Shown: piece after piece, positions 28,891 through 48,887 of the stretch
How positions within the stretch are numbered: the first letter of the stretch is position 1
How the letters are laid out: each line of letters starts with the position of its first letter
Source of the DNA: Ignavibacteria bacterium UBA2373
GTDB lineage: Bacteria; Bacteroidota; Ignavibacteria; Kapaibacteriales; UBA961
DNA length: 64,000 nt
Assembly (NCBI GenBank): GCA_002344005.1
Contig: DDTD01000046.1
Coordinates: 66,403-130,402, forward strand
Direction: 5' to 3'
Translations under genes and position numbers: made by a program
Notes under the pieces: generated by a model
The model's input: the letters and a program-made list of their open reading frames with translations, nothing else
Databases searched by the model: none
What the model was told of the DNA's origin: nothing

Positions 28891-30216
28891 TTATCGTTTA
28901 AGCTGATTGATTTCACCAAGGAACTGGTCACTTATAGTCACTGTACGCGATGCGGCTTCAAAAGCTCTTTGCGTAGTGATAAGATCGGTAAACTGTTCGG
29001 TCAAATCAACATTAGACTCTTCCAATGCGGTTGAGTTTATACGGGTGGAAGGGAAAATTTCCACAGCCGTTCCCACTGTGGGCAATCCACTATTAGGAGA
29101 TATGGAGAAGAAGTTACCGCCTTCTTTCATCAATCCGCCCGGATTGGTAAAGCGTGCAAGCACTACTTGACCCAATAGCTCTGACTGACCATTGGTAAAT
29201 GCTCCAAGTATCTTACCTGTCTGATCAACCGAAATTCTTGAAAGTTCACCGGAAGTATATCCATCTTGTTCGCGAGCTGTTACTGTATTCAAACCGGCGA
29301 ACTGAGTTAAACCGCCTAATAAATTATCGGGCGTGGCTAAAGTTATAGTCACATCCTTGGGTGTATCCTGATCAAATGCATTCGATGTACTGACAGCATT
29401 TAATGCACTTGCGGCTAAAGTAAAGTTTAATGGAGTTTGAAGTGTACCGTCAGAATTAAAATTGATGGATGTGGGTGCTCCGGCAATAGGTGTAGAATTA
29501 CCATCCATTGTCGCCACTAAACCAAAGGTGTTTGGAGCAGTTTTCGTGAAAGCTAAATTCAAAACGCGAGGCGCACCCTGCGTATCATAAATAGTGATAC
29601 TTGTATTAAACTCATCGCCTGTATTTGCATCACCACGTAAATTACCTGTAATCTGTACACTTTGAGTTTGGCGCGGTGCAGATTTAAATGTTGGCGATAT
29701 TTGTACATTTGTTACTTTACGATTTAATTGATTGGTGCCACTTGAATCTTTCAACACACGACCTGAACTATCTGTTTCAAGATTATAGCCCTGCACATAA
29801 GAGCCGGAAGAACTATCCACAAGATTACCACGGGAATCTAAGGAGAATGCTCCTGCACGTGAATATAATGTTTGACCATTTTGCTTAAACACAAAAAGTC
29901 CATCGCCTTGCAAAGCCAAATCAAGTGCACGAGTTGTATTTTGTATAGATCCTTGATTTAAATCTAATTTAATTGCACCGAGGCGAACGCCTAAACCAAT
30001 TTGAACCGGATCGCCACCACCGATACCGCCCGCGGCTATATTACTTGGTGAAGAACCTGAACCAAATGTTTGTGAAAATTGCTCGGCAAATGTTGTGCGG
30101 CTTCCTTTAAACCCTATAGTATTAACATTTGCGATATTATTAGAAATAACATCAAGACGTTGTTGATGCGCACGCAGGGAACTTGTGCCTGCCGATAAAG
30201 AACGAATAAGTGCCAT
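28891..30216 (-). CDS. flgE: Flagellar hook protein FlgE
   Basis: N-terminus MALIRSLSAGTSSLRAHQQRLDVISNNIANVNTIGFK and C-terminus ...RAFEAASRTVTISDQFLGEINQLKR are canonical rod/hook-family termini; 442 aa from the ATG at 30216. That ATG follows a GGAGGT RBS; the ORF track extends it 11 codons upstream. Confidence 0.85.
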   Translation of the reverse strand: MALIRSLSAGTSSLRAHQQRLDVISNNIANVNTIGFKGSRTTFAEQFSQTFGSGSSPSNIAAGGIGGGDPVQIGLGVRLGAIKLDLNQGSIQNTTRALDLALQGDGLFVFKQNGQTLYSRAGAFSLDSRGNLVDSSSGSYVQGYNLETDSSGRVLKDSSGTNQLNRKVTNVQISPTFKSAPRQTQSVQITGNLRGDANTGDEFNTSITIYDTQGAPRVLNLAFTKTAPNTFGLVATMDGNSTPIAGAPTSINFNSDGTLQTPLNFTLAASALNAVSTSNAFDQDTPKDVTITLATPDNLLGGLTQFAGLNTVTAREQDGYTSGELSRISVDQTGKILGAFTNGQSELLGQVVLARFTNPGGLMKEGGNFFSISPNSGLPTVGTAVEIFPSTRINSTALEESNVDLTEQFTDLITTQRAFEAASRTVTISDQFLGEINQLKR

Positions 30217-30335
30217 AATGAATGACCTCCAATAAGAAAAAAAATATTTCAAAAAAACATCAAATCATCAGTCAGTCAGATTTGATTTGGAGGGATTTCC
30301 TGCCATAGCAATGGCGAGGTCCTATCCCTGATTAT

Positions 30336-30722
30336 TTATGCGAAAACAGCGGAATCAATATTCGTAAAGACCGTTGGCTCGCTTTCATTTTTTTGCATTG
30401 CCGTGATGACCGTTTTATTGGGTACGCTAACCACAAAAGCCATATCTCGTAACATTACTAATGTTTCCGTTCCGCCTTTATCTTGTACTCTTTGAATTGC
30501 AGTATCAATCCTCTGTAAATCTTCATCCGATAATTGCACATCACGACTTGTCAAACGACTTTGCGCATGTGCTGAAAAACGCAATTTATTAATTTCCTGT
30601 TCAAATAAATCACCAAATGAGACTTTGGGTTGCTCAGTTTGAACCGGAACGGATTGACGTTTTAACTCACGAATACCACCCACAGGAATAAAAGGCAAAG
30701 AAACATTATGTATTTCAGACAT
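30336..30722 (-). CDS. Small flagellar-operon protein between flgD and flgE (TIGR02530-like)
   Basis: 128 aa, conserved position between flgD and flgE as in Firmicutes/spirochete fla operons. Assignment is by synteny only. Confidence 0.4.
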   Translation of the reverse strand: MSEIHNVSLPFIPVGGIRELKRQSVPVQTEQPKVSFGDLFEQEINKLRFSAHAQSRLTSRDVQLSDEDLQRIDTAIQRVQDKGGTETLVMLRDMAFVVSVPNKTVITAMQKNESEPTVFTNIDSAVFA

Positions 30723-30761: not shown

Positions 30762-31454
30762 TTATGGAATAATTTCAACAATATCCGCCAATGGCATTTC
30801 ACCACCATTAACAACAAGCATTGTACCTTCTTGTTTAAATCTCAAGCCACTTACGGTACCGCGCACAAATGTTTTTGCTTCAACGGGTGATGAACCCGCT
30901 GTAGCAACAACTTCGATGCGATAATTATCTTTTCCCAACATCTGACCCCGATTATTTTTTCCGTCAAACATCAGGGTATGACGGCCATTTTTCAAATTTG
31001 CGCCCTCAAGTGGAATGCTTCTTACAACGGCACCTGCTTCCGTTTTAATTTGTAAAACACCCTCTGATGCAGACTGCGGTAAATCGTATGCAATTGTCAC
31101 AGGATTAGCACCGTCAAATGCCAAATAATCTGTTTGAGCTTCGACATTTTTACCGATGAGTGCAGGCGCACTTGCATTTGTTACGGATGCCGCAAGTACT
31201 TTATTACCCTCTAATTGATTTTCCAGTAATTTACTGATATTTGTTAATTGTTCTAACGATGAAAATTGTGCTAACTGCGAAGCAAACTCTTGGCCTTCTT
31301 GCGGTTTTAATGGGTTCTGAGATTTCATTTGTTGTGTTAATAATTTTAGAAACTCTTCTTTACCCAGTTCTTTCTTTGGAGCTGTACCTGTTTTTCGTAA
31401 ATCCTCAAATACATTACTCGTATTCGATGTATTATTTACTGATGTTGTTGCCAT
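30762..31454 (-). CDS. flgD: Flagellar hook capping/assembly protein FlgD
   Basis: LGKEEFLKLLTQQMKSQNPLKPQEGQEFASQLAQFSSLEQLTNI is the conserved FlgD N-domain. The C-terminal FlgD Ig-like region is also present. Confidence 0.8.
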   Translation of the reverse strand: MATTSVNNTSNTSNVFEDLRKTGTAPKKELGKEEFLKLLTQQMKSQNPLKPQEGQEFASQLAQFSSLEQLTNISKLLENQLEGNKVLAASVTNASAPALIGKNVEAQTDYLAFDGANPVTIAYDLPQSASEGVLQIKTEAGAVVRSIPLEGANLKNGRHTLMFDGKNNRGQMLGKDNYRIEVVATAGSSPVEAKTFVRGTVSGLRFKQEGTMLVVNGGEMPLADIVEIIP

Positions 31455-31473: not shown

Positions 31474-34400
31474 TTATCGCTGTGATTGAAAAATTCTATT
31501 AAATGCACTGGTAGTATAATTTACCGTTGTTTGTGATTTTCGTGCATCGGCAGCATATTTAAACGATCGAGTAAATTGTTGACGACTCTCTTGTTCTTGC
31601 TGCGATTGACCTTGGCGATTATGCGAAGAATATTGTGAATTATGGGACATTTCTTCCTCTTTTTTTCGCACAGTCACTTCCACGCTATCAAGTTGCATGC
31701 CTTGTTTACCAAATTGATCTTTTAATTGAGGAAGCTGTGACTCAATTATCTGTTTCGTTTGCTGTGAATCAACTTGTATTTGTAATTGTGTATCAGAATT
31801 TAAAGTGGAATATCGCACAATGACTGTACCTAACTCTTCAGGTTGCAATACCATACGTACTGTTCCATTTCCTTGTGTTTTTGAGGAAATATATTCATGA
31901 GCCTTATCCGCAAAATGCTGTACCGGTAATAATTCCATTATTTCCATAGATGCAACCTTTTTTATAGTAGGTATGCCGACTTTTTGGACTGGCTGAATAT
32001 GAACATTGTGAGGAATAATGATAGAATCTTGAGAAGGGAAATTACTATTTTCAGTCAAGACAAAATTTTGAGAACTATCTGCTACTCCTAAAGATTGATT
32101 TGAGATTGGTGATAATGTCGTTTGTATTTCATTTTCTACATCAATATTATCACTTTTTGACTTAATACTTGAGTTTTGCTGCAATAGATTGCTTTGATTA
32201 TTAATATTATTCGTTATCTCCCCTCTTGGTACTACTCGCTCAGAAGTAGAGGTAATGAACATATTATTAAAAGTATTGTTTTTTTCTACATTCTGATTCG
32301 CAACTGCATTTTTTAACGAAGAACGATAGTGTGATAATTCTTTTTTGAGTAAACTATTATCTTGGTTTGTTGAATTTTGTTGAGTTAGATTTTCGGACTT
32401 TTTAATTATACCATCATTAAAAACGACTGTTTTTTCATATTCAACAAAAGACAAACCTTTCTTTACTTCAGATTTTTTTTCTACCTCACCGGATATTTGC
32501 TTAGAAACAAAACTTCTTTGTATTTTTTCCGAACCATCGTTTGTTTCCAACGAATTCAAAACGTTCATTTTAACTTCATTGGGAATAGTCTCGACTGATT
32601 TTTCAAGGTGGATCTTTTTTGTATTTCGAGAATCAACTTGAGTGTTCTGTATTATAGCGTCAGATGGAGAAGTAGCACTATCATTATAGCGAATCTTAAA
32701 GACAATATTTTTAACCGGAACACCGACTGACGACGCCTTTTCAATAATGGAATGAAGTGCCATTACCGTATTCGGAATAACTTGATGAGAAGTTTGTATA
32801 TCAGAAGGTGGAGTTACAACAATTGCTGAATTATCATGGGTTTTGTTCTTTAAGACATAGAGTGCACCATCGCTGGTTTGTAATGGCTCATGAACAGTAC
32901 GATCAAAAGCCGAAGTATTAAGTATTTTCACAGCTTTAGAATCAGTATCATCATTGATTGTTAATTCTTCATCATTCTCAATAACTTCCTGTTCATCTAA
33001 GTTCTCCGGAACAATTGATTCATAGGTATTCTTTAGTGTATGAACTAATATTGTATCTGTCGGTTGTATAATTGATTTTGATTTGTCATCATTTTGTTTA
33101 ATAGTATGTTGATTGGTTTTCGATGCAATACTTACATTGTCATCAATTCTACTATCCGTTCTTTCTGTAAAAGGAATATTTGACAAAGTGTTAAGTTGTA
33201 TATTCTCCTTGGTTTTTTTACTGAGATTATGTACACCTTTATTTTTCAAAGATTCCTGTTTAGATAAAGATACTATTTGTGGACTATTGTCATTTTTCAC
33301 CATTACATTGTCATCAACAATACCAGCATCACCATTAAATGTATCATTTTTTGAAACTTGATAAACATTGTTATCTAATTGAGTTGATTTTTTTATCTCA
33401 GTAACAACATTCTCTTTCGAGGACAATGCAACAGTATTAGTTTCTTGACTTTTACCTATAGTAACTCGATCATAAGTAAGCGACTCCGAAGATGTCACGG
33501 TAGCATTTAACTTGTTGTCATTTATAACAGCATTGTCTTCAGCTTCCGTAAGAATCGCATTATTATGAGTATTTGTTGTATTATGAGTAATAGTATTTTT
33601 CGATTTTTGATTAAGTTCTGTCAATAAAGTACTATTACTTTTATCACTGTACAGTAATCCGGCATCAGTTTCTTGTACTTCGTCAACGACAGGTTTAGGC
33701 GGAACCTTATATATTACCTCTGATTTGAAAACTTTATCGTGTTTGACAGTATCTAAGTTATTATCTGAAAATGTATTCTTTTTCTGATTCTGATGTACTT
33801 TCGGTGTATTTCCTACAGCATTCGATTCTCCCTTAGATGCACTACTTTCAACTGAATTAAGATTATTGATAGTTTTTAATAAAATTGCTTCTTCTTCTGG
33901 AGAATATTCAACAGACGGAATATCACGCTTTTTAAATTTCATATTGTTGTCATCTGAATCAAAAACACCATAATCAGATGTATTTTTCACAGTCGAATCA
34001 TCGTTTGAGATAATGTCAGAAATTAATTTTATATCCTGCTTGGAAGTATTTCGAGTACCATTATCAATTGATTCATGAATTATTTGCTCAGTAGATGTAT
34101 TATTTACAACACTATTATAGACCGAGTCTTTTTTAGTCTTATTTACAACAATATTATTGACATTGTTTAAGCCAATATCTTTTAGGCTAATGCTATAAGA
34201 ATCATTATTTTCTAAAGCAGATATCTGCTCAGAATAAACCATATGATTATTTGACTTTTTTTTGTCTGATAAAACATTTAATTCATTTACAGTGCTATTT
34301 TCTTTATAATTTAAGGTATCTGATGAATGTACTTTTTGTTGTCCGTCTATATCATAGTCTTTTAATCTATTACGGGACAGCCTGTCAACAGTATATCCTT

Positions 34401-37400
34401 GCACAGTCTGATTTTTATTCTCTTTTGTATGAAGATCTGAAATATTACTTTCATGCGGTGATCTATACATGATATTATCACTCGAATCAACAGATATTTC
34501 TTCTTGAGAATTGTCTAATATAAGATTTACACGATGTTCTGAACTGTTTTTCTCACCACCGTCTGCTGTCTGACGTGCACCTACTTTATCCGATATAACT
34601 GCGTTTGTAGCAGATTTCACTTTTGCAAATGATAATCTTTCTAATGGTTTTGCACTTTTTTCTTGTATTCCTGATGTTGCTTTGGATTTACTATTACCTT
34701 TCAACAACTCAATTTCTGAACGAACTGTAACAGATTTAGCGGAAAAATCTAATTTCGCCGATGATTCCTCCGAAGAATTATCTATGACAATACTGTGTTC
34801 AGTAAGATTTTTCTTATCACCGTCTGTCTGATGTACACCCAATTTATCAGATGTATCGTTTTCTAATTTTGCAAATAATGATTTCTCTAATGGTTTTGTA
34901 CTTTGTTCTTGTATTCCTGCTACTACTTTGGATTTACTATTACCTTCCAATGACTCAATTTCTGAACGAACAATAACAGATTTAGCGGAAAAATCTAATT
35001 TCGCCGATGATTCCTCCGAAGAATTACCTGTTACAAGAGCAACATTACTTTCTGAAAGATTTTTCTCACCACCATCTGTCTGATGTACACTCAATTTATC
35101 AAATGTATCGTTTTCTGATTTTGTAAATGATGATTTCTCTAATGGTTTTGTACTTTGTTCTTGTATTCGTGCTACTGCTTTGGATTTACTATTACCTTCC
35201 ATTGACTCAATTTCTGAACGAACAATAACAGATTTAGCGGAAAAATCTAATTTCGCCGATAATTCTTCCGAAGAATTATCTGTTACAAGAGCAACATTAT
35301 GTTCTGAAAGATTTTTCTCACCACCGTCTGCTTGATTTACTCCTAAATTATTAGTAAAAACTTCGATTATTTCTTTATCGTCAATAGATTTTGTACTTGA
35401 TGTTTTATGAGTAAACGTATTTGCATACGTTTTAGAGTTATCTCTAGTACTTTCAATAGGAATAGAATTCTCAGTATTGCTTCCGTTTGTGATTTCTTTT
35501 ATTGATTCAGAAAAGAAATGTCCGGATGTTTTTTGAATTATCTTTTCAATACTTCTTTCTGATTCTTCGACATCAATAGTACGATTTGATTGTTTTGATT
35601 TTATTGAAGAAAATTTATCATAATCGCTTTCATTATATTCCGTACCTGTATGTATTTCTACGTTTTCACCTGTTCTTAATACATCTTGAAAAGAAATTTT
35701 GGAGTTTTTTGCATTACCTTGATCTATTGTCTGATCAATAATAGAGTCTTTAGCATATTGCCTAACAGTTTGCTGTTGTTCTAGCGAAATGCTCTTTGCA
35801 ACAAGATTTTTCTCATTATGTTCATTTTGTGATGTTTCACTATATGTTATTTTTTGATTGTTTGCTTGTTGAGATGTATCTGGCATTGACATGACTTTAG
35901 ATTCAGGTCTTTTTTCCTCATTTTGATTATATGATAGATGATTTTCAATCTGAGGATGGTTTATATCCGCGTCAATATCATCATTATAAATATTGTTTTG
36001 CGATGATTTTATTGTTTGAATGATTGAGGTCTTAGTACGGATAGTGCTGTTTTCAATATTTACTGATTTATCATCTTCCTTCAATGTATTCACATACATT
36101 CCTATAGCAGGTGCTTTTTCAGATGATAGTATTTTTGATGTCGTATTTTCAAATTGTGCCACTGTGTTTACTTCATTATTAGTCTTCTTCACTCCGGCAT
36201 TCTTAATTTTTGCTTCTGCATCACTATTATATGCGATGATATTTTCTCTATCGTTCTGACTTTTCAATTCAGACTTATCATGAATAAGCTGTTCATTGAC
36301 TATGTCTGTTTTTTCCAATGTATTTCTCGAATTGCTTGAATTGTTGTATTTATTTGCATTCGATATCGGTTGAAATTTTTCTGTTAATTGTGCATGCTTT
36401 TCATTATTTCTATGAAACTCAAGACTATTTTCTTCAGGAAATAATTTTTCAATGTATTCTTCAATAGCAGCATTCTGCAAACTCGGATCTACCGTTGTTA
36501 TTGATATTGATTTCCTTGTATTTTTATTATCTATATTATCTGTATTGGAATTTTCATCTCCAACAGGCTGATTAATTTTGTTTTGTTGTTCATCACCTAT
36601 ATTATCTAAATTGGAATTTTCATTTCCAACAAGTTGGTTAATCTTGTTTTGTGATATATATGTGTCTTTAGCTCGACTTTTATTTACTACATTTTCTTGC
36701 AATGAATCACTCCCATGATAACTCATTGCTTTATCTTTATACGGGAATGTATTATTCTTTACGGCTTTGTCTGATTCACTATTATTTACATTTTGTTGAG
36801 ACTGCAGGACTCCACCTTTGATAGTATCATTATAAAACCTCATTGGTATATTCTGTTCTTCATTTGTACCATTTTGAAGCGGTAATGATGTATTTGATGC
36901 TTTATTTGACCCTTGAGGTAGATTTAAGTTCTTATTAGCAGTTATACTTTCATTTGTCGAAGTTATTGTATCAGGATTTGATATAGACTCAGCATGATTA
37001 TTTAGATTTACGACTTTAGTATGCTGTGGAAGTACAGTTTTCTCTTGTAAACCATTATTAACCGGTTTATGATATACTGATCCAAATACTTGTTCAAAGC
37101 TTACTTCCGTATTTTGATTGTTGTACTTTACAGTCACTTGATCTTTACTAAAGGAACTCTCCAACGGTTGTGATTTTTGTTGCATGGGTATCCATAAATT
37201 TTGGATTACCATATCAATAATGTGCGGTATTTCCTCCTGTGATGTTGTCGAAATATCAACACGTACTTGAATATCCTCATTATGTGAGGAAAGTAAATTG
37301 ATTTGAACTTTACTTTTATTGTGCACCTTCATTGAATCACTAAAATCTCGTATCATGGATTCAATTTCTGAAGATTTTTCCTTATTTTTCGATTGTGTAT

Positions 37401-37971
37401 TTGATAGAACAATATCTGTGGCACTATCATTTTTTTGTCTGTAAGAATCCGTCTTTTTACTATCAATGTTTATAGCATCAACTAATCCACCTACATTCGA
37501 GTTTTCTTTTGTTTTCTGAATCTCTGTATCGGTAGTGACTTGCTTTGCAAGAGTGGGATTATTGGCATCGAACAGTTGGGATTGTTTTTTCACTTTTTGA
37601 TTATCCAGACCTTGAAACAACGATAGCTCTTCTCCCTCCGAATCGTTTGAGGATTGGGATTTCACCACTATATCATATACATATTCCCATTGGTTATCTA
37701 TATCTGTCGTTGGTTGAAATATTCTAGCTGTATTTGATTGTACAACTTGCTCATTTTGTGTATAAGACGAATTTTCTTTTAATAAAGTAACAGGTACTGT
37801 GATATTGTTACGTGTGCTTTTAGCATCAATCGTTGATTGAAGCAGATTTGAAAAGGCAAATATTGGTGGAGAATAATCACCATCTGGCGATTTAGACACA
37901 GAGGCATCCGTAAGATTTCCGGATGAGTTTGTGAGAAAATGTATGTCTATTTTCATTGTTGCGTCCTGCAA
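31474..37971 (-). CDS. fliK: Giant FliK-like hook-length control protein (2165 aa): FliK C-terminal domain preceded by ~1900 aa of Asn/Ser/Thr/Lys-rich low-complexity sequence with internal tandem repeats
   Basis: The C-terminal ~150 aa (GNGTVRMVLQPEELGTVIVRYS...LQIQVDSQQTKQIIESQLPQLKDQFGKQGMQLDSVEVTV, then a Gln-rich tail) match the FliK/Flg_hook domain. The gene sits between fliJ/MotE-like and flgD, as fliK does in fla operons. Uninterrupted ORF. Confidence 0.65.
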   Translation of the reverse strand: MQDATMKIDIHFLTNSSGNLTDASVSKSPDGDYSPPIFAFSNLLQSTIDAKSTRNNITVPVTLLKENSSYTQNEQVVQSNTARIFQPTTDIDNQWEYVYDIVVKSQSSNDSEGEELSLFQGLDNQKVKKQSQLFDANNPTLAKQVTTDTEIQKTKENSNVGGLVDAINIDSKKTDSYRQKNDSATDIVLSNTQSKNKEKSSEIESMIRDFSDSMKVHNKSKVQINLLSSHNEDIQVRVDISTTSQEEIPHIIDMVIQNLWIPMQQKSQPLESSFSKDQVTVKYNNQNTEVSFEQVFGSVYHKPVNNGLQEKTVLPQHTKVVNLNNHAESISNPDTITSTNESITANKNLNLPQGSNKASNTSLPLQNGTNEEQNIPMRFYNDTIKGGVLQSQQNVNNSESDKAVKNNTFPYKDKAMSYHGSDSLQENVVNKSRAKDTYISQNKINQLVGNENSNLDNIGDEQQNKINQPVGDENSNTDNIDNKNTRKSISITTVDPSLQNAAIEEYIEKLFPEENSLEFHRNNEKHAQLTEKFQPISNANKYNNSSNSRNTLEKTDIVNEQLIHDKSELKSQNDRENIIAYNSDAEAKIKNAGVKKTNNEVNTVAQFENTTSKILSSEKAPAIGMYVNTLKEDDKSVNIENSTIRTKTSIIQTIKSSQNNIYNDDIDADINHPQIENHLSYNQNEEKRPESKVMSMPDTSQQANNQKITYSETSQNEHNEKNLVAKSISLEQQQTVRQYAKDSIIDQTIDQGNAKNSKISFQDVLRTGENVEIHTGTEYNESDYDKFSSIKSKQSNRTIDVEESERSIEKIIQKTSGHFFSESIKEITNGSNTENSIPIESTRDNSKTYANTFTHKTSSTKSIDDKEIIEVFTNNLGVNQADGGEKNLSEHNVALVTDNSSEELSAKLDFSAKSVIVRSEIESMEGNSKSKAVARIQEQSTKPLEKSSFTKSENDTFDKLSVHQTDGGEKNLSESNVALVTGNSSEESSAKLDFSAKSVIVRSEIESLEGNSKSKVVAGIQEQSTKPLEKSLFAKLENDTSDKLGVHQTDGDKKNLTEHSIVIDNSSEESSAKLDFSAKSVTVRSEIELLKGNSKSKATSGIQEKSAKPLERLSFAKVKSATNAVISDKVGARQTADGGEKNSSEHRVNLILDNSQEEISVDSSDNIMYRSPHESNISDLHTKENKNQTVQGYTVDRLSRNRLKDYDIDGQQKVHSSDTLNYKENSTVNELNVLSDKKKSNNHMVYSEQISALENNDSYSISLKDIGLNNVNNIVVNKTKKDSVYNSVVNNTSTEQIIHESIDNGTRNTSKQDIKLISDIISNDDSTVKNTSDYGVFDSDDNNMKFKKRDIPSVEYSPEEEAILLKTINNLNSVESSASKGESNAVGNTPKVHQNQKKNTFSDNNLDTVKHDKVFKSEVIYKVPPKPVVDEVQETDAGLLYSDKSNSTLLTELNQKSKNTITHNTTNTHNNAILTEAEDNAVINDNKLNATVTSSESLTYDRVTIGKSQETNTVALSSKENVVTEIKKSTQLDNNVYQVSKNDTFNGDAGIVDDNVMVKNDNSPQIVSLSKQESLKNKGVHNLSKKTKENIQLNTLSNIPFTERTDSRIDDNVSIASKTNQHTIKQNDDKSKSIIQPTDTILVHTLKNTYESIVPENLDEQEVIENDEELTINDDTDSKAVKILNTSAFDRTVHEPLQTSDGALYVLKNKTHDNSAIVVTPPSDIQTSHQVIPNTVMALHSIIEKASSVGVPVKNIVFKIRYNDSATSPSDAIIQNTQVDSRNTKKIHLEKSVETIPNEVKMNVLNSLETNDGSEKIQRSFVSKQISGEVEKKSEVKKGLSFVEYEKTVVFNDGIIKKSENLTQQNSTNQDNSLLKKELSHYRSSLKNAVANQNVEKNNTFNNMFITSTSERVVPRGEITNNINNQSNLLQQNSSIKSKSDNIDVENEIQTTLSPISNQSLGVADSSQNFVLTENSNFPSQDSIIIPHNVHIQPVQKVGIPTIKKVASMEIMELLPVQHFADKAHEYISSKTQGNGTVRMVLQPEELGTVIVRYSTLNSDTQLQIQVDSQQTKQIIESQLPQLKDQFGKQGMQLDSVEVTVRKKEEEMSHNSQYSSHNRQGQSQQEQESRQQFTRSFKYAADARKSQTTVNYTTSAFNRIFQSQR

Positions 37972-38083: not shown

Positions 38084-38647
38084 TTACTCTTGAGTTGCAC
38101 TTAAAACCAGAATTGATGCAGCAAGCTCAGGTTTAATATTTTCAAGGACTTTTGCAGCATTCTTTGGTTTCATTTTTTTCAAAATAAATGCTGCATCTCT
38201 TTCATCTAACTCACTAATGATTTTAGCTACGTCTTCGGGGTTTGCTTTATCATACATTTGTGCAAACACAGTATAATTAGTCCTAATCAGTGAATCTCTT
38301 TTCCTTGTAAGTTCCTGCTCAATCTTTGCGTTTTCAAGTTTTAAATACTCATTCGTTTTCTTAGCTTCATTGCCAATAGAACGAACTTTCATTAGTGAAT
38401 CAGAAATTTGTGCCAACTTTTTCTCTAGTGAATCATTTTTTTTCTTAATCTTATTGAGGTCACTCTTTTTAATTTTTACTGAATCAATGACAGACTTAGC
38501 TTTCTTCATTTGTGCTAATAATGCAACACTGTCAATCTTGGGCGGAGGAAAACCGAGGAATGTCGGATCGTATGTGTAAACGCCAAATAGTGTAGCCAGA
38601 AACACCAAAAAGAATACGGCAGTCCCTATGATTACTTTGAATATCAT
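38084..38647 (-). CDS. MotE/YlxF-like flagellar protein (N-terminal TM, coiled coil, C-terminal MgtE_N-like domain)
   Basis: C-terminus PEDVAKIISELDERDAAFILKKMKPKNAAKVLENIKPELAASIL resembles the MgtE_N fold of YlxF/MotE. Sits between fliJ and fliK as ylxF does in B. subtilis. Confidence 0.5.
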   Translation of the reverse strand: MIFKVIIGTAVFFLVFLATLFGVYTYDPTFLGFPPPKIDSVALLAQMKKAKSVIDSVKIKKSDLNKIKKKNDSLEKKLAQISDSLMKVRSIGNEAKKTNEYLKLENAKIEQELTRKRDSLIRTNYTVFAQMYDKANPEDVAKIISELDERDAAFILKKMKPKNAAKVLENIKPELAASILVLSATQE

Positions 38648-38650
38648 ATT

Positions 38651-39097
38651 CTATCGTTTCCGCTCTATTGATTGTCGGATGTTCATACCATTGGCTATTT
38701 CATCCAAAAATTGTTGTTCCTCAGCATTCATTTTTTTCTCATACTCCATTTTTTTTCTTTCACGGAGTTTTTCTATTACTTTTTTTTCTTGTAATTTTTT
38801 ATTTAACTCATTACGCCGAATGTTTTCCAGCTCTTGTAATTTTTTGATTTCATTTTTTAATATTTCAACCTCTTCTCGTACAGCAGTCCTGTGATGTGCA
38901 TTCATCTGCAAATCAGTAATGATTGTCTTTTCATGATCTTGCTTCATACTTTGAAGATAATTTACTTTTTCATCAATTCTTTTTTCCATGGATTCTCGCG
39001 CGATTATAACCTCACCCAATGCAATTTTTGCCTGTGATACTTCATATTCGCGTAAATGTAAAACACTTTGTAATTGAAATGTAAATATTTTTCCCAT
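38651..39097 (-). CDS. fliJ: Flagellar export chaperone FliJ
   Basis: 148-aa coiled-coil protein immediately downstream of fliI; N-terminus FTFQLQSVLHLREYEVSQAKIAL is typical of FliJ. Confidence 0.65.
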   Translation of the reverse strand: MGKIFTFQLQSVLHLREYEVSQAKIALGEVIIARESMEKRIDEKVNYLQSMKQDHEKTIITDLQMNAHHRTAVREEVEILKNEIKKLQELENIRRNELNKKLQEKKVIEKLRERKKMEYEKKMNAEEQQFLDEIANGMNIRQSIERKR

Positions 39098-39110
39098 ACT
39101 ATCTTCTCAA

Positions 39111-40424
39111 TTACTGCACAATTGTTTTCATCCATTCTATTGTATCAACAAACTCTGTTGGATCTTCTACTTTCTGCTGAAGAAAATTACGTATTTCCCC
39201 TTGTAATCGTAATGATTTATCCACTAATGGATTCGATCCGTGATTATAAGCGCCGACAGTTATCATATCTTCATTTTCCCGATACGCTGAAAGTAATATC
39301 CTCAGCAGTTGTGCCGCTTCTTTATGGTCAGATTGTGACACTTCCTTCATTAATCGGCTGATACTTTCCAATACATCTATGGCGGGAAAATGCCCCATGG
39401 CGGCTAATCTGCGTGAGAGCACAAAGTGACCATCAAGAATACCGCGCGCCGTGTCGGCAATCGGTTCATTCATGTCATCACCCTCGACTAATACTGTATA
39501 AAGTCCTGTAATTGAACCGATGTCGGATGTGCCCGCTCTTTCCATTAATTTGGGCATCATCGTGAATACTGATGGCGGATACCCTTTTGTCGTCGGCGGT
39601 TCACCGATAGTTAGACCAATTTCTCTTTGTGCCATTGAAAGACGTGTTACCGAATCCATCATCAACATGACGTCAAGTCCCTGATCGCGGAAAAATTCAG
39701 CAATCGTTGTGGCTATCAAAGGTGCTTTTACACGCACCAAAGGTGGCATATCACTCGTGGCAACAATCACCACCGAACGTCTCATACCATCTTCGCCTAA
39801 GGATTCTTCAATGAAATCCCTTACCTCTCTCCCGCGTTCACCTATAAGTGCAATAACATTCACGTCCGCTGTGGTATAACGTGCTATCATACCCATCAAT
39901 GTTGATTTTCCAACACCCGAACCAGCGAATATACCGACTCTTTGTCCCTTACCGATTGTTAATGTCCCGTCAATGGCTCTCACTCCTGTAATCAAGGGCT
40001 CTGTGATGCGCCGACGCATGAGCGGATTAGGTGGTTGTGCATATACGGAACGCTGCACCACACCCGTAAGCCGTCCTTTATTATCTAAAGGTTCACCCAA
40101 ACCATCCAATACTCTTCCCAATAAATTTTCTCCAACTGATACCGTCAATTTAGTACCTGTGGCAATAATTTCCATACCCGGTTCAATATCGTGCAAATCA
40201 CCGAGAACCATAGATAATATGCGTGAATCCCTAAATCCGATAATTTCAGAACGACATACTTCATTGCCCGCCCTATCACGCAAACTACACACTTCACCGA
40301 CAGGTGCCTGTGGTCCTTCACTTTCAATAACCAACCCCACAACCTGCACCACCCTTCCGACTGCACGCACAGATTTGGTGTTACGAATAATAGGCGAATA
40401 TTTATCAAGTAAAGAGCTTGTCAT
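39111..40424 (-). CDS. fliI: Flagellum-specific ATP synthase FliI
   Basis: Walker A GSGVGKSTL, Walker B VMLMMDSVTR, F1/V1-ATPase beta-like fold; 437 aa. Confidence 0.9.
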   Translation of the reverse strand: MTSSLLDKYSPIIRNTKSVRAVGRVVQVVGLVIESEGPQAPVGEVCSLRDRAGNEVCRSEIIGFRDSRILSMVLGDLHDIEPGMEIIATGTKLTVSVGENLLGRVLDGLGEPLDNKGRLTGVVQRSVYAQPPNPLMRRRITEPLITGVRAIDGTLTIGKGQRVGIFAGSGVGKSTLMGMIARYTTADVNVIALIGERGREVRDFIEESLGEDGMRRSVVIVATSDMPPLVRVKAPLIATTIAEFFRDQGLDVMLMMDSVTRLSMAQREIGLTIGEPPTTKGYPPSVFTMMPKLMERAGTSDIGSITGLYTVLVEGDDMNEPIADTARGILDGHFVLSRRLAAMGHFPAIDVLESISRLMKEVSQSDHKEAAQLLRILLSAYRENEDMITVGAYNHGSNPLVDKSLRLQGEIRNFLQQKVEDPTEFVDTIEWMKTIVQ

Positions 40425-40430
40425 GAGTAT

Positions 40431-41135
40431 TTATTCGGATAATCGTGCTGCATGTAATTGTCGGCGAATTTCTTGTAATTGTGTCGTAATCTGAGCATCC
40501 ACTGCCCCAATATCGGATTCGACAATACAACCGCCTCGAGAAATGCTTGAATCGGCAATAATAGTAATATCGGGGTTACGCATTGTATCGCCAATTAATG
40601 TATTTTTAACTTGCTCTATCGCCTCATATTCATGAGGATTAATTCTCACACGTAATGTCTGTGCATTGCGATAACCGTCAATTGCTTTTCGTGCCTGCCT
40701 TATTACCATTGAGGCATCATGACTAATTGTATCGGCAATAATCGTTTCCGCTATCTCCACAGCAATATTTAAGGATAACTCTTCCATTTGTTTGGTGATT
40801 TTCTGAAATTCTCCATGCAAACGAAGTATCATCTTTTCAAAATGATTGCGGATTTCTTGTTGCTCTTGTATTTCTACGGTCATTGTTGCTGCTGTCACTT
40901 GCTTACCATCATCAAAGCCGCGATCATAGGCGTCTTGTATCATCTGCTGAGCTTCGGCATAAGAAATTGGCTCGGGCAAATCACTTTCCTGTAATAATTC
41001 ATCACCGTCCGGAAAATCATTTTCGTCAAATTCAGCAAAATTTGCCGCAAGAATAGATTCATCCTCATACGATGGAATTATTTTCAATCGTGAATGACCC
41101 GGCGAAGGAATTTCTATCGTTAATACTTTACTCAT
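40431..41135 (-). CDS. fliH: Flagellar assembly protein FliH
   Basis: 234 aa, acidic N-terminus, central coiled coil and FliH-like C-terminal domain; positioned between fliG and fliI. Confidence 0.65.
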   Translation of the reverse strand: MSKVLTIEIPSPGHSRLKIIPSYEDESILAANFAEFDENDFPDGDELLQESDLPEPISYAEAQQMIQDAYDRGFDDGKQVTAATMTVEIQEQQEIRNHFEKMILRLHGEFQKITKQMEELSLNIAVEIAETIIADTISHDASMVIRQARKAIDGYRNAQTLRVRINPHEYEAIEQVKNTLIGDTMRNPDITIIADSSISRGGCIVESDIGAVDAQITTQLQEIRRQLHAARLSE

Positions 41136-41140
41136 AATGC

Positions 41141-42178
41141 TTATACAAATACATCCTCGGAACCGCGACCGCTAATAACAATTTCATCACGTTCTTCAAG
41201 CACTTTAATAACATCAACAATGCGTACTTGTGCCGCTTCGACATCTTTGAGCTTCACAGGTCCCATAAATTCCAATTCTTCGCGAATAACTTCGGCTGCC
41301 CTTTCGGACATATTTTTGAAAATCTTGGTCTGGATTTTTTCATCGGCAACTTTTAATGCCATTGCCAAATCTCGTTTGTCAACTTCACGAAGAATACGCT
41401 GAATGCCTTTATCATCTATCATGATTATATCTTCAAACAAGAACATCAAGCGTTTAATTTCTCCCGATAATCCGGGATTGCGTTCTTCAATGGATTCCAA
41501 AAGACTTTTTGCAGTGGCATTATTCGTTTTATTCAAAATTGCAGCAACTAATTGCGCACCACCTGTTGCTGCAAGATTTTGTGAAAGCACTGCATCACCT
41601 ATTTGGTCAACAACTGCCTCTACTTCTGCAATAATAGAAGGCGACACCTTTCCTAAAGTCGCAATACGCACCAAAGTATCGGCGCGTAATTCATCCGTAA
41701 ATTCACTCAATAAATCCGAACTTTGATCGGGTGTTAAATGCGATAAAATAAGTGCTATGGTTTGTGGATGTTCTTTCGATAAAAAGCTGGCTAATTGTTG
41801 CGGATCGGCTTTCCGTAATATATCGAAGCCACGTATGGTAGTTAGGATTTTTATTTTGTCGAGAATTTCCTTAGCGCGCTCCGGACCAAAAGATTTTTGC
41901 AATAATGTGAGGGCATAATCAAGACCACCATCCAAATAATAGCCGTGCGCTGTCATTAATTCAAAAAATTCTTCATTAACCTTATGGATTATATCTTTCG
42001 ATACACCCTTAAGTGTCGTAATCTCTACGGCTATGGATTCTACATCCTTGGGATCAAGTTGGGAATATATTTTTGCTGCATTATCCACATCTAATGTCAT
42101 AAGCAAAATTGCTACTTTTTGTTTGCCATTCAATCGCTCATAGGTCAGATGTCTTGATATTTCTAATTCTTTAGCCAT
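41141..42178 (-). CDS. fliG: Flagellar motor switch protein FliG
   Basis: 345 aa. The C-terminal torque-generating region MFLFEDIIMIDDKGIQRILREVDKRDLAMALKVADEKIQTKIFKNMSERAAEVIREELEFMGPVKLKDVEAAQ is highly conserved. Confidence 0.9.
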   Translation of the reverse strand: MAKELEISRHLTYERLNGKQKVAILLMTLDVDNAAKIYSQLDPKDVESIAVEITTLKGVSKDIIHKVNEEFFELMTAHGYYLDGGLDYALTLLQKSFGPERAKEILDKIKILTTIRGFDILRKADPQQLASFLSKEHPQTIALILSHLTPDQSSDLLSEFTDELRADTLVRIATLGKVSPSIIAEVEAVVDQIGDAVLSQNLAATGGAQLVAAILNKTNNATAKSLLESIEERNPGLSGEIKRLMFLFEDIIMIDDKGIQRILREVDKRDLAMALKVADEKIQTKIFKNMSERAAEVIREELEFMGPVKLKDVEAAQVRIVDVIKVLEERDEIVISGRGSEDVFV

Positions 42179-42197
42179 AGTAAGTCGGTTATATATA

Positions 42198-43910
42198 TTA
42201 TTTTTTCATATAATCTTGCTGCATTACCAATTTAAGCAATCTTGACGCATCAGCCGGTTTTTCCAGTAAATAATTCTTCACACGATTGCCTATCTCCTCT
42301 TTCATGAAATCATCCTCAGTCAATTCGCCAAGCGTTTGCTCATCAAGTCGTCTGCGAGCTAATTCCGCCAGATTTTCTCGCTCAGCATTAGGATCATAAG
42401 GCTCAAGACGGCTTACAGAACTCGAAGCAACATTACTGCCCGGTAATAATAACAATGGATCATCCCCACGTATTGTGGCTAATAATGCCGCATCAACGGC
42501 GGGCGGCTCACCCAATACCCATTCTATACGACTGCGTACTTGCGGCGACATAATCAACTTGCGTATCATCCAAATGGCTAATAACATCGCCAACACTATC
42601 AATACTTTCTCAATTATCTCCTCTGTGGTCAATGGCAAATCAGTACCGCGCAATCGCTCAAGTTCTTCTTGCTCCGACGTGATGTCAAATTGGATATTTT
42701 CTACCGTCACTTGATCGCTACGGGTCGGATTGTAACCCACTGAATTTTTTATTATCTGATTTAATTGCAACATTTGTTCTTGCGGGCGCGGCGTATATTC
42801 CAGCGTGGGTGCGCCGTCTTTCTCCACTACCTTCGTGGTGCCATTTATCAATGCCGCTACCGTCATCCTTTTGATGCCGCCACCATTATTTATGATTTTC
42901 TCCACTGTCTTGGATATTTCATAATTCGTAATTTTGTTCCGGTTCTCGCTATTAGAATTTGTGGCAGGGTAATTTAATGAATCTACTGCCGCACTACGCC
43001 CTTCTAATTGCTGCTCGCTGCGAACTACCTGCTCATCCGGGTTAAATTTCTCTTCTGTTTTCTCTATTTGCTGAAAATCAAGCTCCGTGGTTGCACGCAC
43101 CACCGCATTGCCAACACCCAAAACGCCATCCAACAAACTCTGAACTTTTGAAGTAAGATACTGATCAACTTTTTGCTGCAATTCATACTGCGTATCGCTC
43201 ATCGCTGCCAAAGAATTCTTATCCCTTTGCGGTTCTGACAATATCTGACCCTTCTGATCAACAACCGTTACTGCCCCGGCATCCAAACCTTCTATGCTGC
43301 TCGCAACCAAGTTCTGTATGCCCTCCACATTTAACTTATTGATACTCTTCGTGCCCTTCAATTGCAAGACAACAGATGCCGTCGCTTGCTTCTGGTCTTT
43401 GTCGAACAATGCCTTTTCCGGTATTACTATATGCACACGGGCTTTCTTAACCTCGCCTATAGAACCTATAGTACGCGCTAATTCACCCTCCAATGCACGA
43501 CGATAATTTAACTTCTGCACAAAATCCGACATACCCAAATTGGTCTTATCGAACAATTCATAACCAACAACGCTCGATTCTGGCAAGCCCTCCGATGCCA
43601 ATGACAATCGTGTATCATGCAACACTTCCTGCGGTATCAATATCGTGCTGCCATTGTTCGACAACTCATACGGTATATTACGCTCTCGCAATTTATCAGT
43701 TATCGTCGCCGCATCCTTTGCCTCCAACTCACTGAACAATACCGACATCTGGGTCTTATTTGCCATCCCTATTATCATCACTATAGCAGCAATCGCCGCT
43801 ACCACCGCCCCACCGATGAATATTTTCTGCGTACGAGTCAATCTGTTCGCAAAATTGCGTAATTGTCCCGCCAAACTCTGTCCCGATTGCAATTGCTGAA
43901 GCTCTGCCAT
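42198..43910 (-). CDS. fliF: Flagellar M-ring protein FliF
   Basis: 570 aa, two TM segments (N-terminal and ~residue 440), conserved region VHIVIPEKALFDKDQKQATASVVLQLK. Confidence 0.85.
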   Translation of the reverse strand: MAELQQLQSGQSLAGQLRNFANRLTRTQKIFIGGAVVAAIAAIVMIIGMANKTQMSVLFSELEAKDAATITDKLRERNIPYELSNNGSTILIPQEVLHDTRLSLASEGLPESSVVGYELFDKTNLGMSDFVQKLNYRRALEGELARTIGSIGEVKKARVHIVIPEKALFDKDQKQATASVVLQLKGTKSINKLNVEGIQNLVASSIEGLDAGAVTVVDQKGQILSEPQRDKNSLAAMSDTQYELQQKVDQYLTSKVQSLLDGVLGVGNAVVRATTELDFQQIEKTEEKFNPDEQVVRSEQQLEGRSAAVDSLNYPATNSNSENRNKITNYEISKTVEKIINNGGGIKRMTVAALINGTTKVVEKDGAPTLEYTPRPQEQMLQLNQIIKNSVGYNPTRSDQVTVENIQFDITSEQEELERLRGTDLPLTTEEIIEKVLIVLAMLLAIWMIRKLIMSPQVRSRIEWVLGEPPAVDAALLATIRGDDPLLLLPGSNVASSSVSRLEPYDPNAERENLAELARRRLDEQTLGELTEDDFMKEEIGNRVKNYLLEKPADASRLLKLVMQQDYMKK

Positions 43911-45517: not shown

Positions 45518-45736
45518 ACTTACTTTTCCTCGACAATTACTTCTCGCAACACTTCCGCTCCCAAGTTCAATGCCAATCAATGCTCATAAACTATCACATA
45601 ACACAAAGCAATCCGAAACCTTGATTTCGCTACACTTACCAAAACATAACCACATAATTCACCCTCATAAACAAAGGACAATACCATCCATCTGAACAAT
45701 AATAACCATCACAAACAATCAAACAATCAGCAAATA

Positions 45737-45926
45737 ATTACGAATGGTCAATTATCAATTACGAATGGTCAATTATCAATTACGGATGGTTAATGGTCAA
45801 TTACGGATGGTTAATGGTCAATTACGGATGGTCAATGGTCAATTACGGATGGTTAATGGTCAATTACGGATGGTTAATGGTCAATTACGAATGGTTAAGT
45901 ATCAATTACGAATGGTTAAGTATCAA
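45737..45926. repeat. Tandem array of ~9 copies of a 21-bp unit (AATGGTCAATTACGGATGGTT), 220-410 bp upstream of the flgB start
   Basis: Perfect 21-bp periodicity. Open in two plus-strand frames (MVNGQLR / MVNYGWL heptads). Closed in all three minus-strand frames. Confidence 0.9.
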
Positions 45927-48829: not shown

Positions 48830-48887
48830 GTGATAATAGATAATTGACAATTGACCATTCGTAATTGACAATTGATAATTCGTAATT
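48830..48887. repeat. Short inverted partial copy (~2.5 units) of the 45737-45926 21-bp repeat
   Basis: AATTGACAATTGACCATTCGTAATTGACAATTGATAATTCGTAATT is the reverse complement, at about 85-90% identity, of AATTACGAATGGTCAATTATCAATTACGAATGGTCAATT at 45737-45782. Confidence 0.7.

What the first reader, a model, noticed from the sequence alone, without database searches (positions are those of the whole stretch)
34540..35340. Three to four tandem ~82-84-aa repeats (246/252-nt period) inside the FliK N-terminal region
The unit SAKLDFSAKSV(I/T)VRSEIE(S/L)(M/L)(E/K)GNSKSK...IQE(Q/K)S(T/A)KPLE(K/R)...(DGGEKN) recurs with >85% identity. The nucleotide string TCTAATTTCGCCGATGATTCCTCCGAAGAATTA is at 34748, 34994 and 35246. 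In-frame repeat gain or loss would change ruler length in 82-84-aa steps, a plausible mechanism for heritable variation in hook length.
Basis: seen in the sequence. Interest (0 to 1): 0.55.

Follow-up and report, generated by a model that had tools for sequence, protein, structure and literature searches.

The report
Tandem duplications inside a giant FliK
A 252-base segment has been copied three times in a row (with a decayed fourth copy) inside the long, unstructured middle of an unusually large (2160-residue) flagellar hook-length control protein of a Kapaibacterium-like bacterium. It looks like fixed filler that adds length, not a switch that varies between strains.

Summary
Window 34561-35325 (minus strand) holds three in-frame tandem units of 252/252/261 nt (84/84/87 aa), followed by a decayed fourth copy at 34309-34560. 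They lie at aa 878-1132 of a 2160-aa FliK, which has a T3S4/Flg_hook C-terminal domain and sits between fliJ and flgD/flgE.

The units lie in a ~1420-aa polar spacer with no predicted fold. They drift near-neutrally (dN/dS 0.7-1.7) and match no known family.

The idea of strain-to-strain copy-number variation is not supported. All four alleles that read through the array have three units (29 contigs, several over 1 Mb). The one two-unit contig carries a frameshift at a u1/u2 polymorphic site and looks like an assembly collapse.

Ten related lineages keep total length at 2060-2211 aa, although spacer sequence identity equals that of shuffled controls. Indels between alignable pairs are few, small and balanced. 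So length seems conserved rather than varied.

About a quarter of giant FliKs (12 of 43 of at least 1000 aa) carry unrelated spacer repeats. Tandem duplication is therefore a recurrent way these rulers gain length.

The closest precedent is YscP. The more interesting lead is the giant, length-conserved FliK family itself. The Salmonella slope of 0.2 nm per residue would predict a hook of about 400 nm.

The parts
31474..37956 (-). fliK, giant hook-length control protein. 2160 aa from the family-conserved ATG at 37956; an in-frame TTG at 37971 would add 5 aa.
   Evidence: ORF. Exact product on record on 12 contigs. Pfam Flg_hook. N-terminus MKIDIH conserved in homologues.
35074..35325 (-). Repeat unit u1 (aa 878-961), 252 nt
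   Evidence: 94.4% nt and 87% aa identical to u2.
34822..35073 (-). Repeat unit u2 (aa 962-1045), 252 nt
   Evidence: Longest exact run shared with u1 is 58 nt.
34561..34821 (-). Repeat unit u3 (aa 1046-1132), 261 nt; an older copy
   Evidence: 82-84% nt and 66-68% aa identity to u1/u2. All indels between units are multiples of 3.
34309..34560 (-). Decayed fourth copy u4 (aa 1133-1216). The first ~25 aa (GGEKNSSEHRVNLILDNSQEEIS) are still recognisable.
   Evidence: BLASTP u1 vs aa 1138-1218 (2165 numbering): 33.7% identity, E = 8e-9. dS is about 1.
32902..37170 (-). Central spacer (aa 263-1685). Polar (S/N/K/E/T-rich) and AT-rich, with no sequence conservation between lineages. It contains the array.
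   Evidence: A1 conservation map. Identity between lineages is 24-29% against 21-25% for shuffles. 85% of 61-aa windows fall on the disordered side of the charge-hydropathy plot. GC 0.30 against 0.39-0.45 in neighbouring genes.
37837..37956 (-). Conserved N-terminus (aa 1-40). Presumed export signal or hook-cap-contacting end.
   Evidence: Invariant columns M1 K2 D4 I5 T9 ... L39. The function is inferred from Salmonella FliK-N (PMC6972891).
37171..37371 (-). Conserved island 2 (aa 196-262, ...QVRVDIS...LWIPMQQK); function unknown
   Evidence: No Pfam hit.
32677..32901 (-). Conserved island 4 (aa 1686-1760, PLQT.DG.VYVLKN...ALHSIIEKASSVGVPVKNIVF). A small predicted beta/alpha domain of unknown function.
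   Evidence: AlphaFold pLDDT 77-83. No convincing PDB match.
31657..31941 (-). C-terminal T3S4 (Flg_hook) switch-domain core (aa 2006-2100)
   Evidence: Pfam PF02120. pLDDT 80-91. Foldseek 2RRL E = 6.9e-7 and 5CUK E = 1.5e-3.
31477..31656 (-). Q/S-rich C-terminal tail (aa 2101-2160), highly conserved in sequence
   Evidence: Analogous to the disordered FliK-CT of Salmonella (PMC6972891).
28891..31454 (-). Downstream genes flgD (30762-31454), a Flagellar_put protein (30336-30722) and flgE (28891-30252)
   Evidence: Pfam
38084..43910 (-). Upstream genes: MgtE_N-like protein (38084-38647), fliJ, fliI, fliH, fliG and fliF
   Evidence: Pfam

Best explanation
The array is a fixed, in-frame tandem segmental duplication: three 84-87-aa units plus one decayed older unit. 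It lies inside the roughly 1420-residue spacer of a giant FliK from a Kapaibacterium-like bacterium (Bacteroidota). The spacer is sequence-unconstrained and has no predicted fold.

The units have no fold or function of their own and serve as length. Unequal recombination or replication slippage added 84 residues at a time, and the copies then decay by near-neutral drift. This gives an age ladder: u1/u2 are youngest, u3 is older and u4 is almost erased.

FliK is exported through the growing hook. Its C-terminal T3S4 domain flips FlhB's substrate specificity once the hook has reached the length the protein spans, so residues in the spacer add to the measured length. In this family total length is held at about 2060-2211 aa while spacer sequence is free. 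Duplications like this one are therefore raw material for building and maintaining spacer length, and they are not a strain-level variation device.

Shown here: the repeat anatomy, FliK identity, near-neutral drift, absence of a predicted fold, constant copy number in sampled strains, family length conservation, and recurrence of spacer repeats in other giant FliKs.

Inferred: that spacer length sets hook length in this organism, and that selection acts on length.
For: - Anatomy and statistics of the array.
- FliK identity.
- Near-neutral evolution of units: dN/dS 1.72 (u1/u2), 0.74-0.81 (u1,u2/u3) and 0.64-0.86 (against u4). Of the 14 u1/u2 differences, 12 fall at codon positions 1-2.
- No fold. 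AlphaFold on the unit with an 8-row alignment gives pLDDT 58.6, pTM 0.11 and no secondary structure. In the control, a 7-row alignment folds the T3S4 domain at pLDDT 80-91 and island 4 at 77-83, and leaves spacer 3 at about 30. There are no Pfam hits outside Flg_hook. Composition is polar.
- Not foreign DNA: GC3 is 0.17 in the array and 0.20 in the flanking spacer.
- Copy number is constant at three in P0001, P0009, P0015 and P0011.
- Age: u1/u2 divergence is 5.6% against a strain divergence of 0.45%.
- Family: 10 lineages of 2060-2211 aa, CV 2.8%; the island2-to-island4 distance is 1364-1543 aa. Spacer identity is 24-29% against 21-25% for shuffles, while the islands are 48-92% identical.
- Indels are rare, small and balanced. 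P0002/P0003 are 55% identical with 10 versus 11 gapped residues, net 1. The largest indel in the family is 32 aa.
- Recurrence: 12 of 43 FliKs of at least 1000 aa have spacer tandem repeats with unrelated periods of 49, 52, 65 and 84-89 aa. Sister species P0002/P0003 have a ~3-copy array of 84-89-aa period at the same position.
- Ruler physics: 0.2 nm per inserted residue, measured over 363-785 aa (PMC6126814).
Against: - No hook has been measured in any Kapaibacterium relative, so the link from spacer length to hook length is an extrapolation almost three times beyond the tested range.
- Length conservation could partly reflect a low indel rate rather than selection; I did not fit a neutral indel model.
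- More distant giant FliKs range from 1300 to 2452 aa, so length does shift over deep time.
- Five assemblies break, gap or collapse inside or at the edge of the array (P0010/P0012, P0014, P0016, P0017). Minority copy-number variants in those populations therefore cannot be excluded.
- The repeat region is only borderline on the charge-hydropathy test (63% of windows on the disordered side). A pLDDT of 58 is not as low as the ~30 seen for spacer 3.
- A preprint argues that FliK limits maximal hook length rather than acting as a strict ruler (10.1101/2020.03.25.007062).
Confidence: 0.72

Rival explanations
1. The array is a copy-number-variable locus. Recombination between units gains or loses 84 aa, giving co-existing alleles with hooks that differ by about 17 nm per unit, as YscP repeat variation does for Yersinia needles.
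For: - Exact shared runs of 58 nt (u1/u2) and 53 nt (u2/u3) could support homologous recombination.
- Contig L005 (GCA_002455155.1) shows upstream flank, one hybrid unit, then u3.
- L006 has a 100-N gap in the array, and P0014, P0016 and P0017 break there.
- The L005/L006 strain lineage carries a u2 variant with u3-like bases (GCAACAT...), which hints at exchange between units.
- There is a YscP precedent (PMC3469391).
Against: - Every allele that reads through the array has three units: P0001, P0009, P0015 and P0011, 29 contigs including five over 1 Mb.
- L005's unit is 253 nt long. The extra base (GAACAGTAAT) sits exactly where u1 (GAACA-T) and u2 (GAAAG-T) differ, the unit has a u1-like head and a u2-like tail, and the frame is broken. 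All of this is typical of a collapsed short-read assembly.
- The units are 5.6-17% diverged, so there has been no recent turnover.
- The sister species shows 2210 aa in at least 8 alleles.
- No indel larger than 32 aa separates any alignable pair in the family.
Confidence: 0.12
2. The 84-aa units are folded modules, such as Ig-like or binding domains. Their sequence-specific function would be performed three times, for example contacting hook subunits or the cap.
For: - 84 aa is a typical domain size.
- The motif S-x-K-(L/V)-(D/I)-F recurs in the units of this species and, by eye, in the sister-species arrays.
- The repeat region is less clearly disordered than the rest of the spacer (63% against 85% of windows).
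Against: - AlphaFold predicts no secondary structure (pTM 0.11), while the control domains fold with an equally shallow alignment.
- dN/dS is about 1.
- There is no Pfam match.
- A profile of the three units finds nothing in P0002 or P0003 (no hit reported at E <= 10) and nothing significant in the other family members tested (best E 0.12).
- Lineages P0004-7 and P0035-37 lack any such repeat yet keep the same overall length.
Confidence: 0.05
3. The spacer, and so the array, does not act as a linear ruler. The giant middle region may have another role, such as slowing export as a timer, acting outside the cell after secretion, or simply being tolerated junk. In that case gaining or losing a unit would barely change hook length.
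For: - The 0.2 nm per residue slope has been tested only up to 785 aa.
- A ~400-nm hook has, to my knowledge, never been described.
- Conserved folded islands inside the protein (islands 2 and 4) suggest functions beyond measuring.
- The growth-terminator view of FliK.
Against: - Length conservation together with randomised sequence and balanced small indels is what a length-reading function predicts, and it is hard to explain for junk under the usual bacterial deletion bias.
- The architecture (conserved N-terminus, long unconserved middle, T3S4 domain and tail) parallels Salmonella FliK.
Confidence: 0.25

Closest known systems
YscP, the injectisome needle-length ruler of Yersinia (T3S4 family)
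   Same: It has a homologous C-terminal T3S4 switch domain; the fold match here is to the PscP switch domain 5CUK. Its ruler region carries in-frame tandem repeats, and protein length is linear with organelle length (PMC3469391, citing Wagner 2009).
   Different: YscP repeats are short (14, 25 and 46 aa), and their number differs among Y. enterocolitica strains (452/515/538 aa). Here the unit is 84 aa, the copies are diverged, and copy number is constant in all sampled strains. The protein is also about 4-5 times longer.
Salmonella FliK (405 aa): N-terminal ruler, flexible linker, FliK-C core and disordered tail
   Same: Same gene neighbourhood and the same C-terminal fold (2RRL). The layout also matches: conserved N-terminus, poorly conserved extended middle, T3S4 core and a Q/S-rich tail. 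In Salmonella, insertions in the middle lengthen hooks by 0.2 nm per residue.
   Different: This protein is 2160 aa against 405 aa, and the middle is about 1750 aa longer. It contains two extra conserved islands of unknown function and a tandem array. No natural tandem repeats are described for Salmonella FliK in the papers I read.
Phage tail tape measure proteins
   Same: These are length-determining proteins that evolve by duplication and loss of internal units, and tandem repeats contribute to their length variation (PMC3271669 and PMC13585406).
   Different: They are unrelated in sequence and mechanism. They act as a helical scaffold inside the tail tube and are not exported T3SS substrates. 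This is an analogy only.
Other giant FliKs found here (P0132, P0066, P0061, P0052)
   Same: They carry the Flg_hook C-terminal domain, are over 1000 aa, and have tandem repeats in the spacer. P0052 is also from Ca. Kapaibacterium.
   Different: Their periods (52, 49 and 65 aa) and sequences are unrelated. Some arrays are much younger (96-100% identity, up to ~11 copies), which makes them better candidates for real copy-number variation.

Membership tests
FliK / T3S4 hook-length control proteins | C-terminal T3S4 (Pfam Flg_hook, PF02120) substrate-specificity switch domain | tested here: met
   PF02120 E = 2.7e-15, 56.4 bits against a cut-off of 29.8. The AlphaFold model at pLDDT 80-91 matches 2RRL (E = 6.9e-7) and 5CUK.
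FliK / T3S4 hook-length control proteins | Encoded in the flagellar export/hook operon, downstream of fliI-fliJ and upstream of flgD-flgE | tested here: met
   fliF-G-H-I-J, MgtE_N-like, fliK, flgD, Flagellar_put, flgE by Pfam. The order is the same in L001, L002 and L006.
FliK / T3S4 hook-length control proteins | Extended or disordered, poorly conserved region between the N-terminal export end and the switch domain | tested here: met
   Spacer identity equals shuffled controls. 85% of windows fall on the disordered side. pLDDT is about 30 for spacer 3 and 58.6 with no secondary structure for the repeat unit.
FliK / T3S4 hook-length control proteins | Secreted by the flagellar T3SS during hook growth; hook length scales with protein length | not testable with these tools
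   This needs secretion assays and hook measurements. The organism is known only from metagenome-assembled genomes.
Repeat-number-variable rulers (YscP type) | In-frame tandem repeats inside the ruler region | tested here: met
   Units are 252/252/261 nt, all multiples of 3, and the ORF is intact.
Repeat-number-variable rulers (YscP type) | Copy number differs between strains of a species | tested here: not met
   There are three units in all alleles that span the array (P0001, P0009, P0015, P0011). The only two-unit contig is frameshifted at a u1/u2 polymorphic site. Sampling is limited, because five further assemblies do not span the array cleanly.
Repeat-number-variable rulers (YscP type) | Organelle length correlates with copy number | not testable with these tools
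   No variants and no hook measurements are available.
Contingency (slippage-prone) repeat loci | Near-identical short units that give high-frequency reversible gain or loss | tested here: not met
   The unit is 252 nt and copies are 5.6-17% diverged. The longest identical run is 58 nt. There is no length polymorphism among alleles.
Folded domain repeats (for example Ig-like modules) | Confident fold or profile match, with purifying selection on the unit | tested here: not met
   pTM 0.11 with no secondary structure. There is no Pfam hit. dN/dS is 0.7-1.7.

The most novel reading that the evidence does not exclude
Kapaibacterium-like bacteria may use a FliK about five times the usual size, whose ~1400-residue, sequence-free spacer is held at constant length by selection. 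If so, they either build hooks several-fold longer than any described (about 400 nm on the Salmonella slope of 0.2 nm per residue), or FliK length is read out in a non-linear way. Tandem duplications such as this array would then be the mechanism that supplies and replenishes spacer length against deletion bias.
Probability: 0.3. Interest if true: 0.7.

Novelty: new variant of a known kind. Interest (0 to 1): 0.42.

Why it matters
Molecular rulers are a classic answer to how cells measure nanometre lengths, but the FliK ruler has been calibrated only between about 360 and 785 residues. This family offers a natural experiment far outside that range. Its members are 2060-2211 aa, with relatives up to 2452 aa. 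Sequence is free, length is kept, and tandem duplications are visible as the growth steps.

If hook length really follows the ruler here, these uncultured Bacteroidota should have extraordinary hooks. If it does not, the linear ruler model has a limit. Either result would be informative and could be tested by imaging.

The repeat array itself is a modest finding. It documents how such spacers grow, and it warns that short-read MAG assemblies collapse or break this gene.

Tried and rejected
- The 2122-aa member of the sister-species cluster (P0027) looked like an 88-aa unit deletion. It is in fact C-terminally truncated, ending ...VDSTTNEADY. P0021 (2007 aa) is N-terminally truncated.
- The two-unit contig L005 was considered as a true deletion allele. 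I rejected it as probably collapsed, for three reasons: the frameshift sits at a polymorphic site, the contig contains NN runs, and the sister assembly L006 has a gap at the same place.
- A metagenome-contig scan with the array plus flanks found no relative. I did not use the second scan, because exact peptide seeds from this strain had already failed.
- The genome-contig scan gave only two loci, L002 and L003.
- Homology between this array and the sister-species array could not be shown. A profile of u1-u3 finds nothing in P0002 or P0003. The shared K(L/V)(D/I)F motif is therefore not statistically supported, and only position and period agree.
- A self-BLASTP of the whole protein returned only the diagonal, so I used windowed queries instead.
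- Erhardt 2010 (PMC3471666) is not held. The 0.2 nm per residue figure comes from PMC6126814.
- Rfam finds no RNA family in the region. There is no plus-strand ORF of at least 60 aa over the array.
- Taxon names for the more distant giant FliKs could not be obtained, because most have no source name.
- I did not fit a neutral indel model, so 'selection on length' remains an inference.
Full report
**Observation**

Tandem Repeats Finder reports a single array in the region, at 34621-35351: period 252, 2.9 copies, 88% matches. None of 100 shuffles gave a match.

The array is coding on the minus strand, within one ORF at 31474..37971. The exact product from the ATG at 37956 (2160 aa) is on record on 12 contigs, the one shown being from a bioreactor-sludge metagenome. 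The homologues share that MKIDIH start. From here on I number residues from that ATG.

Phased on the GGEKN motif, the units are:
- u1: aa 878-961 (35074-35325)
- u2: aa 962-1045 (34822-35073)
- u3: aa 1046-1132 (34561-34821)
- decayed fourth copy: aa 1133-1216 (34309-34560). Its first ~25 residues are still recognisable (BLASTP E = 8e-9).

u1 and u2 are 94.4% identical in nucleotides and 87% in amino acids. u3 is 82-84% and 66-68% identical to them. The array also sits in the middle of the protein and is not near the N-terminus.

**What the gene is**

- Pfam finds only Flg_hook (FliK C-terminal domain) at the C-terminus, E = 2.7e-15.
- The neighbours are fliF, fliG, fliH, fliI, fliJ and an MgtE_N-like gene upstream, and flgD, a Flagellar_put gene and flgE downstream.
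- An AlphaFold model of the last 485 residues, built from only seven family sequences, folds the C-terminal core at pLDDT 80-91.
- Foldseek matches that model to the Salmonella FliK C-terminal domain (2RRL, E = 6.9e-7) and the PscP switch domain (5CUK).

The host protein is therefore FliK. Source names on close relatives place it in Candidatus Kapaibacterium / Kapabacteria, in the phylum Bacteroidota.

**What the units are**

- The three units evolve almost neutrally. dN/dS is 1.72 for u1/u2, 0.74-0.81 for u1,u2/u3 and 0.64-0.86 against u4. Of the 14 u1/u2 differences, 12 fall at codon positions 1-2.
- Outside the C-terminus the protein matches no Pfam family.
- AlphaFold on a unit with an eight-row alignment gives pLDDT 58.6, pTM 0.11 and no secondary structure. 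The control run shows that an equally shallow alignment is enough to fold the true domains and leaves another spacer at pLDDT ~30.
- The whole central region (aa 263-1685) is S/N/K/E/T-rich, and 85% of its windows fall on the disordered side of the charge-hydropathy plot. The conserved islands score 0-3%, and the array itself is borderline at 63%.
- Third-position GC in the array (0.17) matches the flanking spacer (0.20), so the array is not an insertion of foreign DNA. The spacer as a whole is more AT-rich than neighbouring genes, consistent with weak sequence constraint.

I conclude that the units are filler and not folded modules.

The 90%-identity cluster of this protein in a ~15-billion-protein collection has ten members.
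- Three complete alleles (P0001, P0009, P0015) are all 2160 aa. A fourth (P0011) is frameshifted upstream of the array and reads through it. All four have three units, and together they stand for 29 contigs. P0009 lies on five contigs longer than 1 Mb.
- The remaining members are fragments that end, start or are gapped inside or at the edge of the array: P0010/P0012 with a 100-N gap, P0014, P0016 and P0017.
- One contig (L005, GCA_002455155.1) shows upstream flank, a single unit, then u3. That unit is 253 nt long. The extra base lies exactly where u1 (GAACA-T) and u2 (GAAAG-T) differ, the head is u1-like and the tail u2-like, and the reading frame is broken. This is what a collapsed short-read assembly of two 94%-identical copies looks like. 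I do not accept it as a real allele, although only read mapping can settle the point.

Two further results bear on timing and on the sister species.
- Strain divergence in this gene is 0.45%, whereas u1/u2 differ by 5.6%. The youngest duplication is therefore about twelve times older than the sampled strain split.
- In the sister species at least eight distinct alleles are 2210 aa and one is 2207 aa. The apparent 2122-aa and 2007-aa members are truncated.

**The family**

- The word-seeded search returned six full-length homologues of 2079-2211 aa, with sequence similarity over only 7-40% of the query.
- An exhaustive HMMER search with the C-terminal domain added lineages of 2060, 2067 and 2203 aa. 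It also found many more distant relatives of 1300-2452 aa, one of them named Ca. Kapaibacterium FliK.
- The alignment shows conserved islands at aa 1-40, 196-262, about 505, 1686-1760 and 2006-2160, separated by unalignable sequence.
- Across ten lineages total length is 2060-2211 aa (CV 2.8%). The island 2 to island 4 distance is 1364-1543 aa.
- Global identity of the central spacers is 24-29%, the same as for shuffled sequences (21-25%), while the flanking islands remain 48-92% identical.
- In pairs that are still alignable, indels are few, small and balanced. P0002/P0003 are 55% identical with 10 versus 11 gapped residues, a net of 1 aa. P0004/P0005 are 40% identical with 46 versus 55. P0035/P0036 are 45% identical with 62 versus 55. 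The largest indel is 32 aa.

Length therefore behaves as the conserved character, which is what a length-measuring protein predicts. I did not fit a neutral indel model, so selection on length is an inference.

**How the spacer grows**

- Sister species P0002/P0003 carry a roughly three-copy array with an 84-89-aa period at the same protein position. It is more decayed, at 32-70% identity.
- Units cluster by species and not by position.
- A profile of this species' units detects nothing in the sister proteins. Common origin of the arrays is plausible from position and period, but it is not demonstrable.
- Lineages P0004-7 and P0035-37 have no detectable repeat, yet their lengths are similar.
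- Among 43 FliKs of at least 1000 aa, 12 have spacer tandem repeats with unrelated periods (49, 52, 65 and 84-89 aa). Some are 96-100% identical with up to about 11 copies.

Tandem segmental duplication followed by decay is thus a recurrent way in which giant FliK spacers acquire length. The age ladder in this window (u1/u2, then u3, then u4) is a snapshot of that process.

**Mechanism and comparison with known systems**

In Salmonella the N-terminal part and linker of FliK act as the ruler, and FliK-C flips FlhB's substrate specificity (PMC6972891). Engineered FliK variants of 363-785 aa give hooks of 42-135 nm, at 0.2 nm per inserted residue (PMC6126814). On that slope:
- one unit corresponds to about 17 nm;
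- the array corresponds to about 51 nm;
- the whole 2160-aa protein would predict a hook of about 406 nm.

The last figure is an extrapolation almost three times beyond the tested range. A preprint also argues that FliK caps maximal hook length rather than measuring strictly.

The closest precedent for repeats in a ruler is YscP. Its 14-, 25- and 46-aa repeats differ in number among Y. enterocolitica strains (452/515/538 aa), and needle length is linear in YscP size (PMC3469391). The present array shares the anatomy but fails the defining feature of strain-level variation. Phage tape measure proteins are a functional analogy only.

My searches found no paper describing giant FliKs in Kapabacteria or Ignavibacteria, although NCBI already annotates these proteins as FliK.

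**Verdict**

The array is in a FliK ruler-like region, and it did add length through in-frame duplication. It appears fixed and old, and it sits in a family where length is conserved.

The array is a new variant of a known kind, namely a repeat-bearing T3S4 ruler. The more interesting lead is the giant, length-conserved FliK family itself.

Noticed in passing
window 32677-32901 (-) and 37171-37371 (-): There are two conserved islands inside the giant FliK: aa 1686-1760 (PLQT.DG.VYVLKN...ALHSIIEKASSVGVPVKNIVF) and aa 196-262 (...QVRVDIS...LWIPMQQK). Neither has a Pfam match. Island 4 is predicted as a small beta/alpha domain (pLDDT 77-83) with no convincing PDB fold match. The islands occur only in the 2060-2211-aa subfamily and not in the more distant giant FliKs.
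   Followed up: partly
window 36544-36648 (-): The same FliK spacer contains a second, small tandem duplication: NKINQLVGNENSNLDNIGDEQ / NKINQPVGDENSNTDNIDNKN at aa 437-479. The period is 22 aa, and 51 of 63 nt are identical.
   Followed up: partly
window 45736-45919, 46717-47085, 20356-20943, 48841-48887: Several tandem arrays with a 21-nt period (2.2 to 17.6 copies, 67-93% matches), unrelated to the fliK repeat. The array at 45736-45919 lies just upstream of the minus-strand flagellar gene block.
   Followed up: no
P0132, P0066, P0061/P0181, P0052 (proteins): Other giant FliKs carry much younger spacer arrays. P0132 has 52 aa x ~11 at up to 98% identity, P0066 has 49 aa x 5 at up to 100%, and P0061 has 65 aa x ~7. 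P0052 (Ca. Kapaibacterium, 2452 aa) has 65 aa x 3 at 84%. These are better candidates for real copy-number variation than the array in this window.
   Followed up: partly
P0034 (Allochromatium warmingii, 'FliK, partial', 1638 aa) and P0038 (912 aa): These proteins have 11 and 5 separate matches to the FliK C-terminal domain. That would be tandemly repeated T3S4-like domains, which is an unusual architecture.
   Followed up: no
L005 (DKKI01000062.1), L006 (DAORMI010000025.1), and proteins P0010-P0017: Public MAG assemblies fragment, gap or collapse this gene at the array, or frameshift it elsewhere. As a result it is annotated as two partial or 'hypothetical' proteins, for example MBK7986259/MBK7986260 and HRE57469/HRE57470. 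This is a caution for any length statistics taken from MAG annotations.
   Followed up: yes
window 31474-37971 (-), compared with strain L004: Between two strains the fliK gene differs at 29 nucleotides, which change 21 residues. Almost all of these lie in the spacers, so relaxed constraint or diversifying pressure is visible even at strain level.
   Followed up: partly
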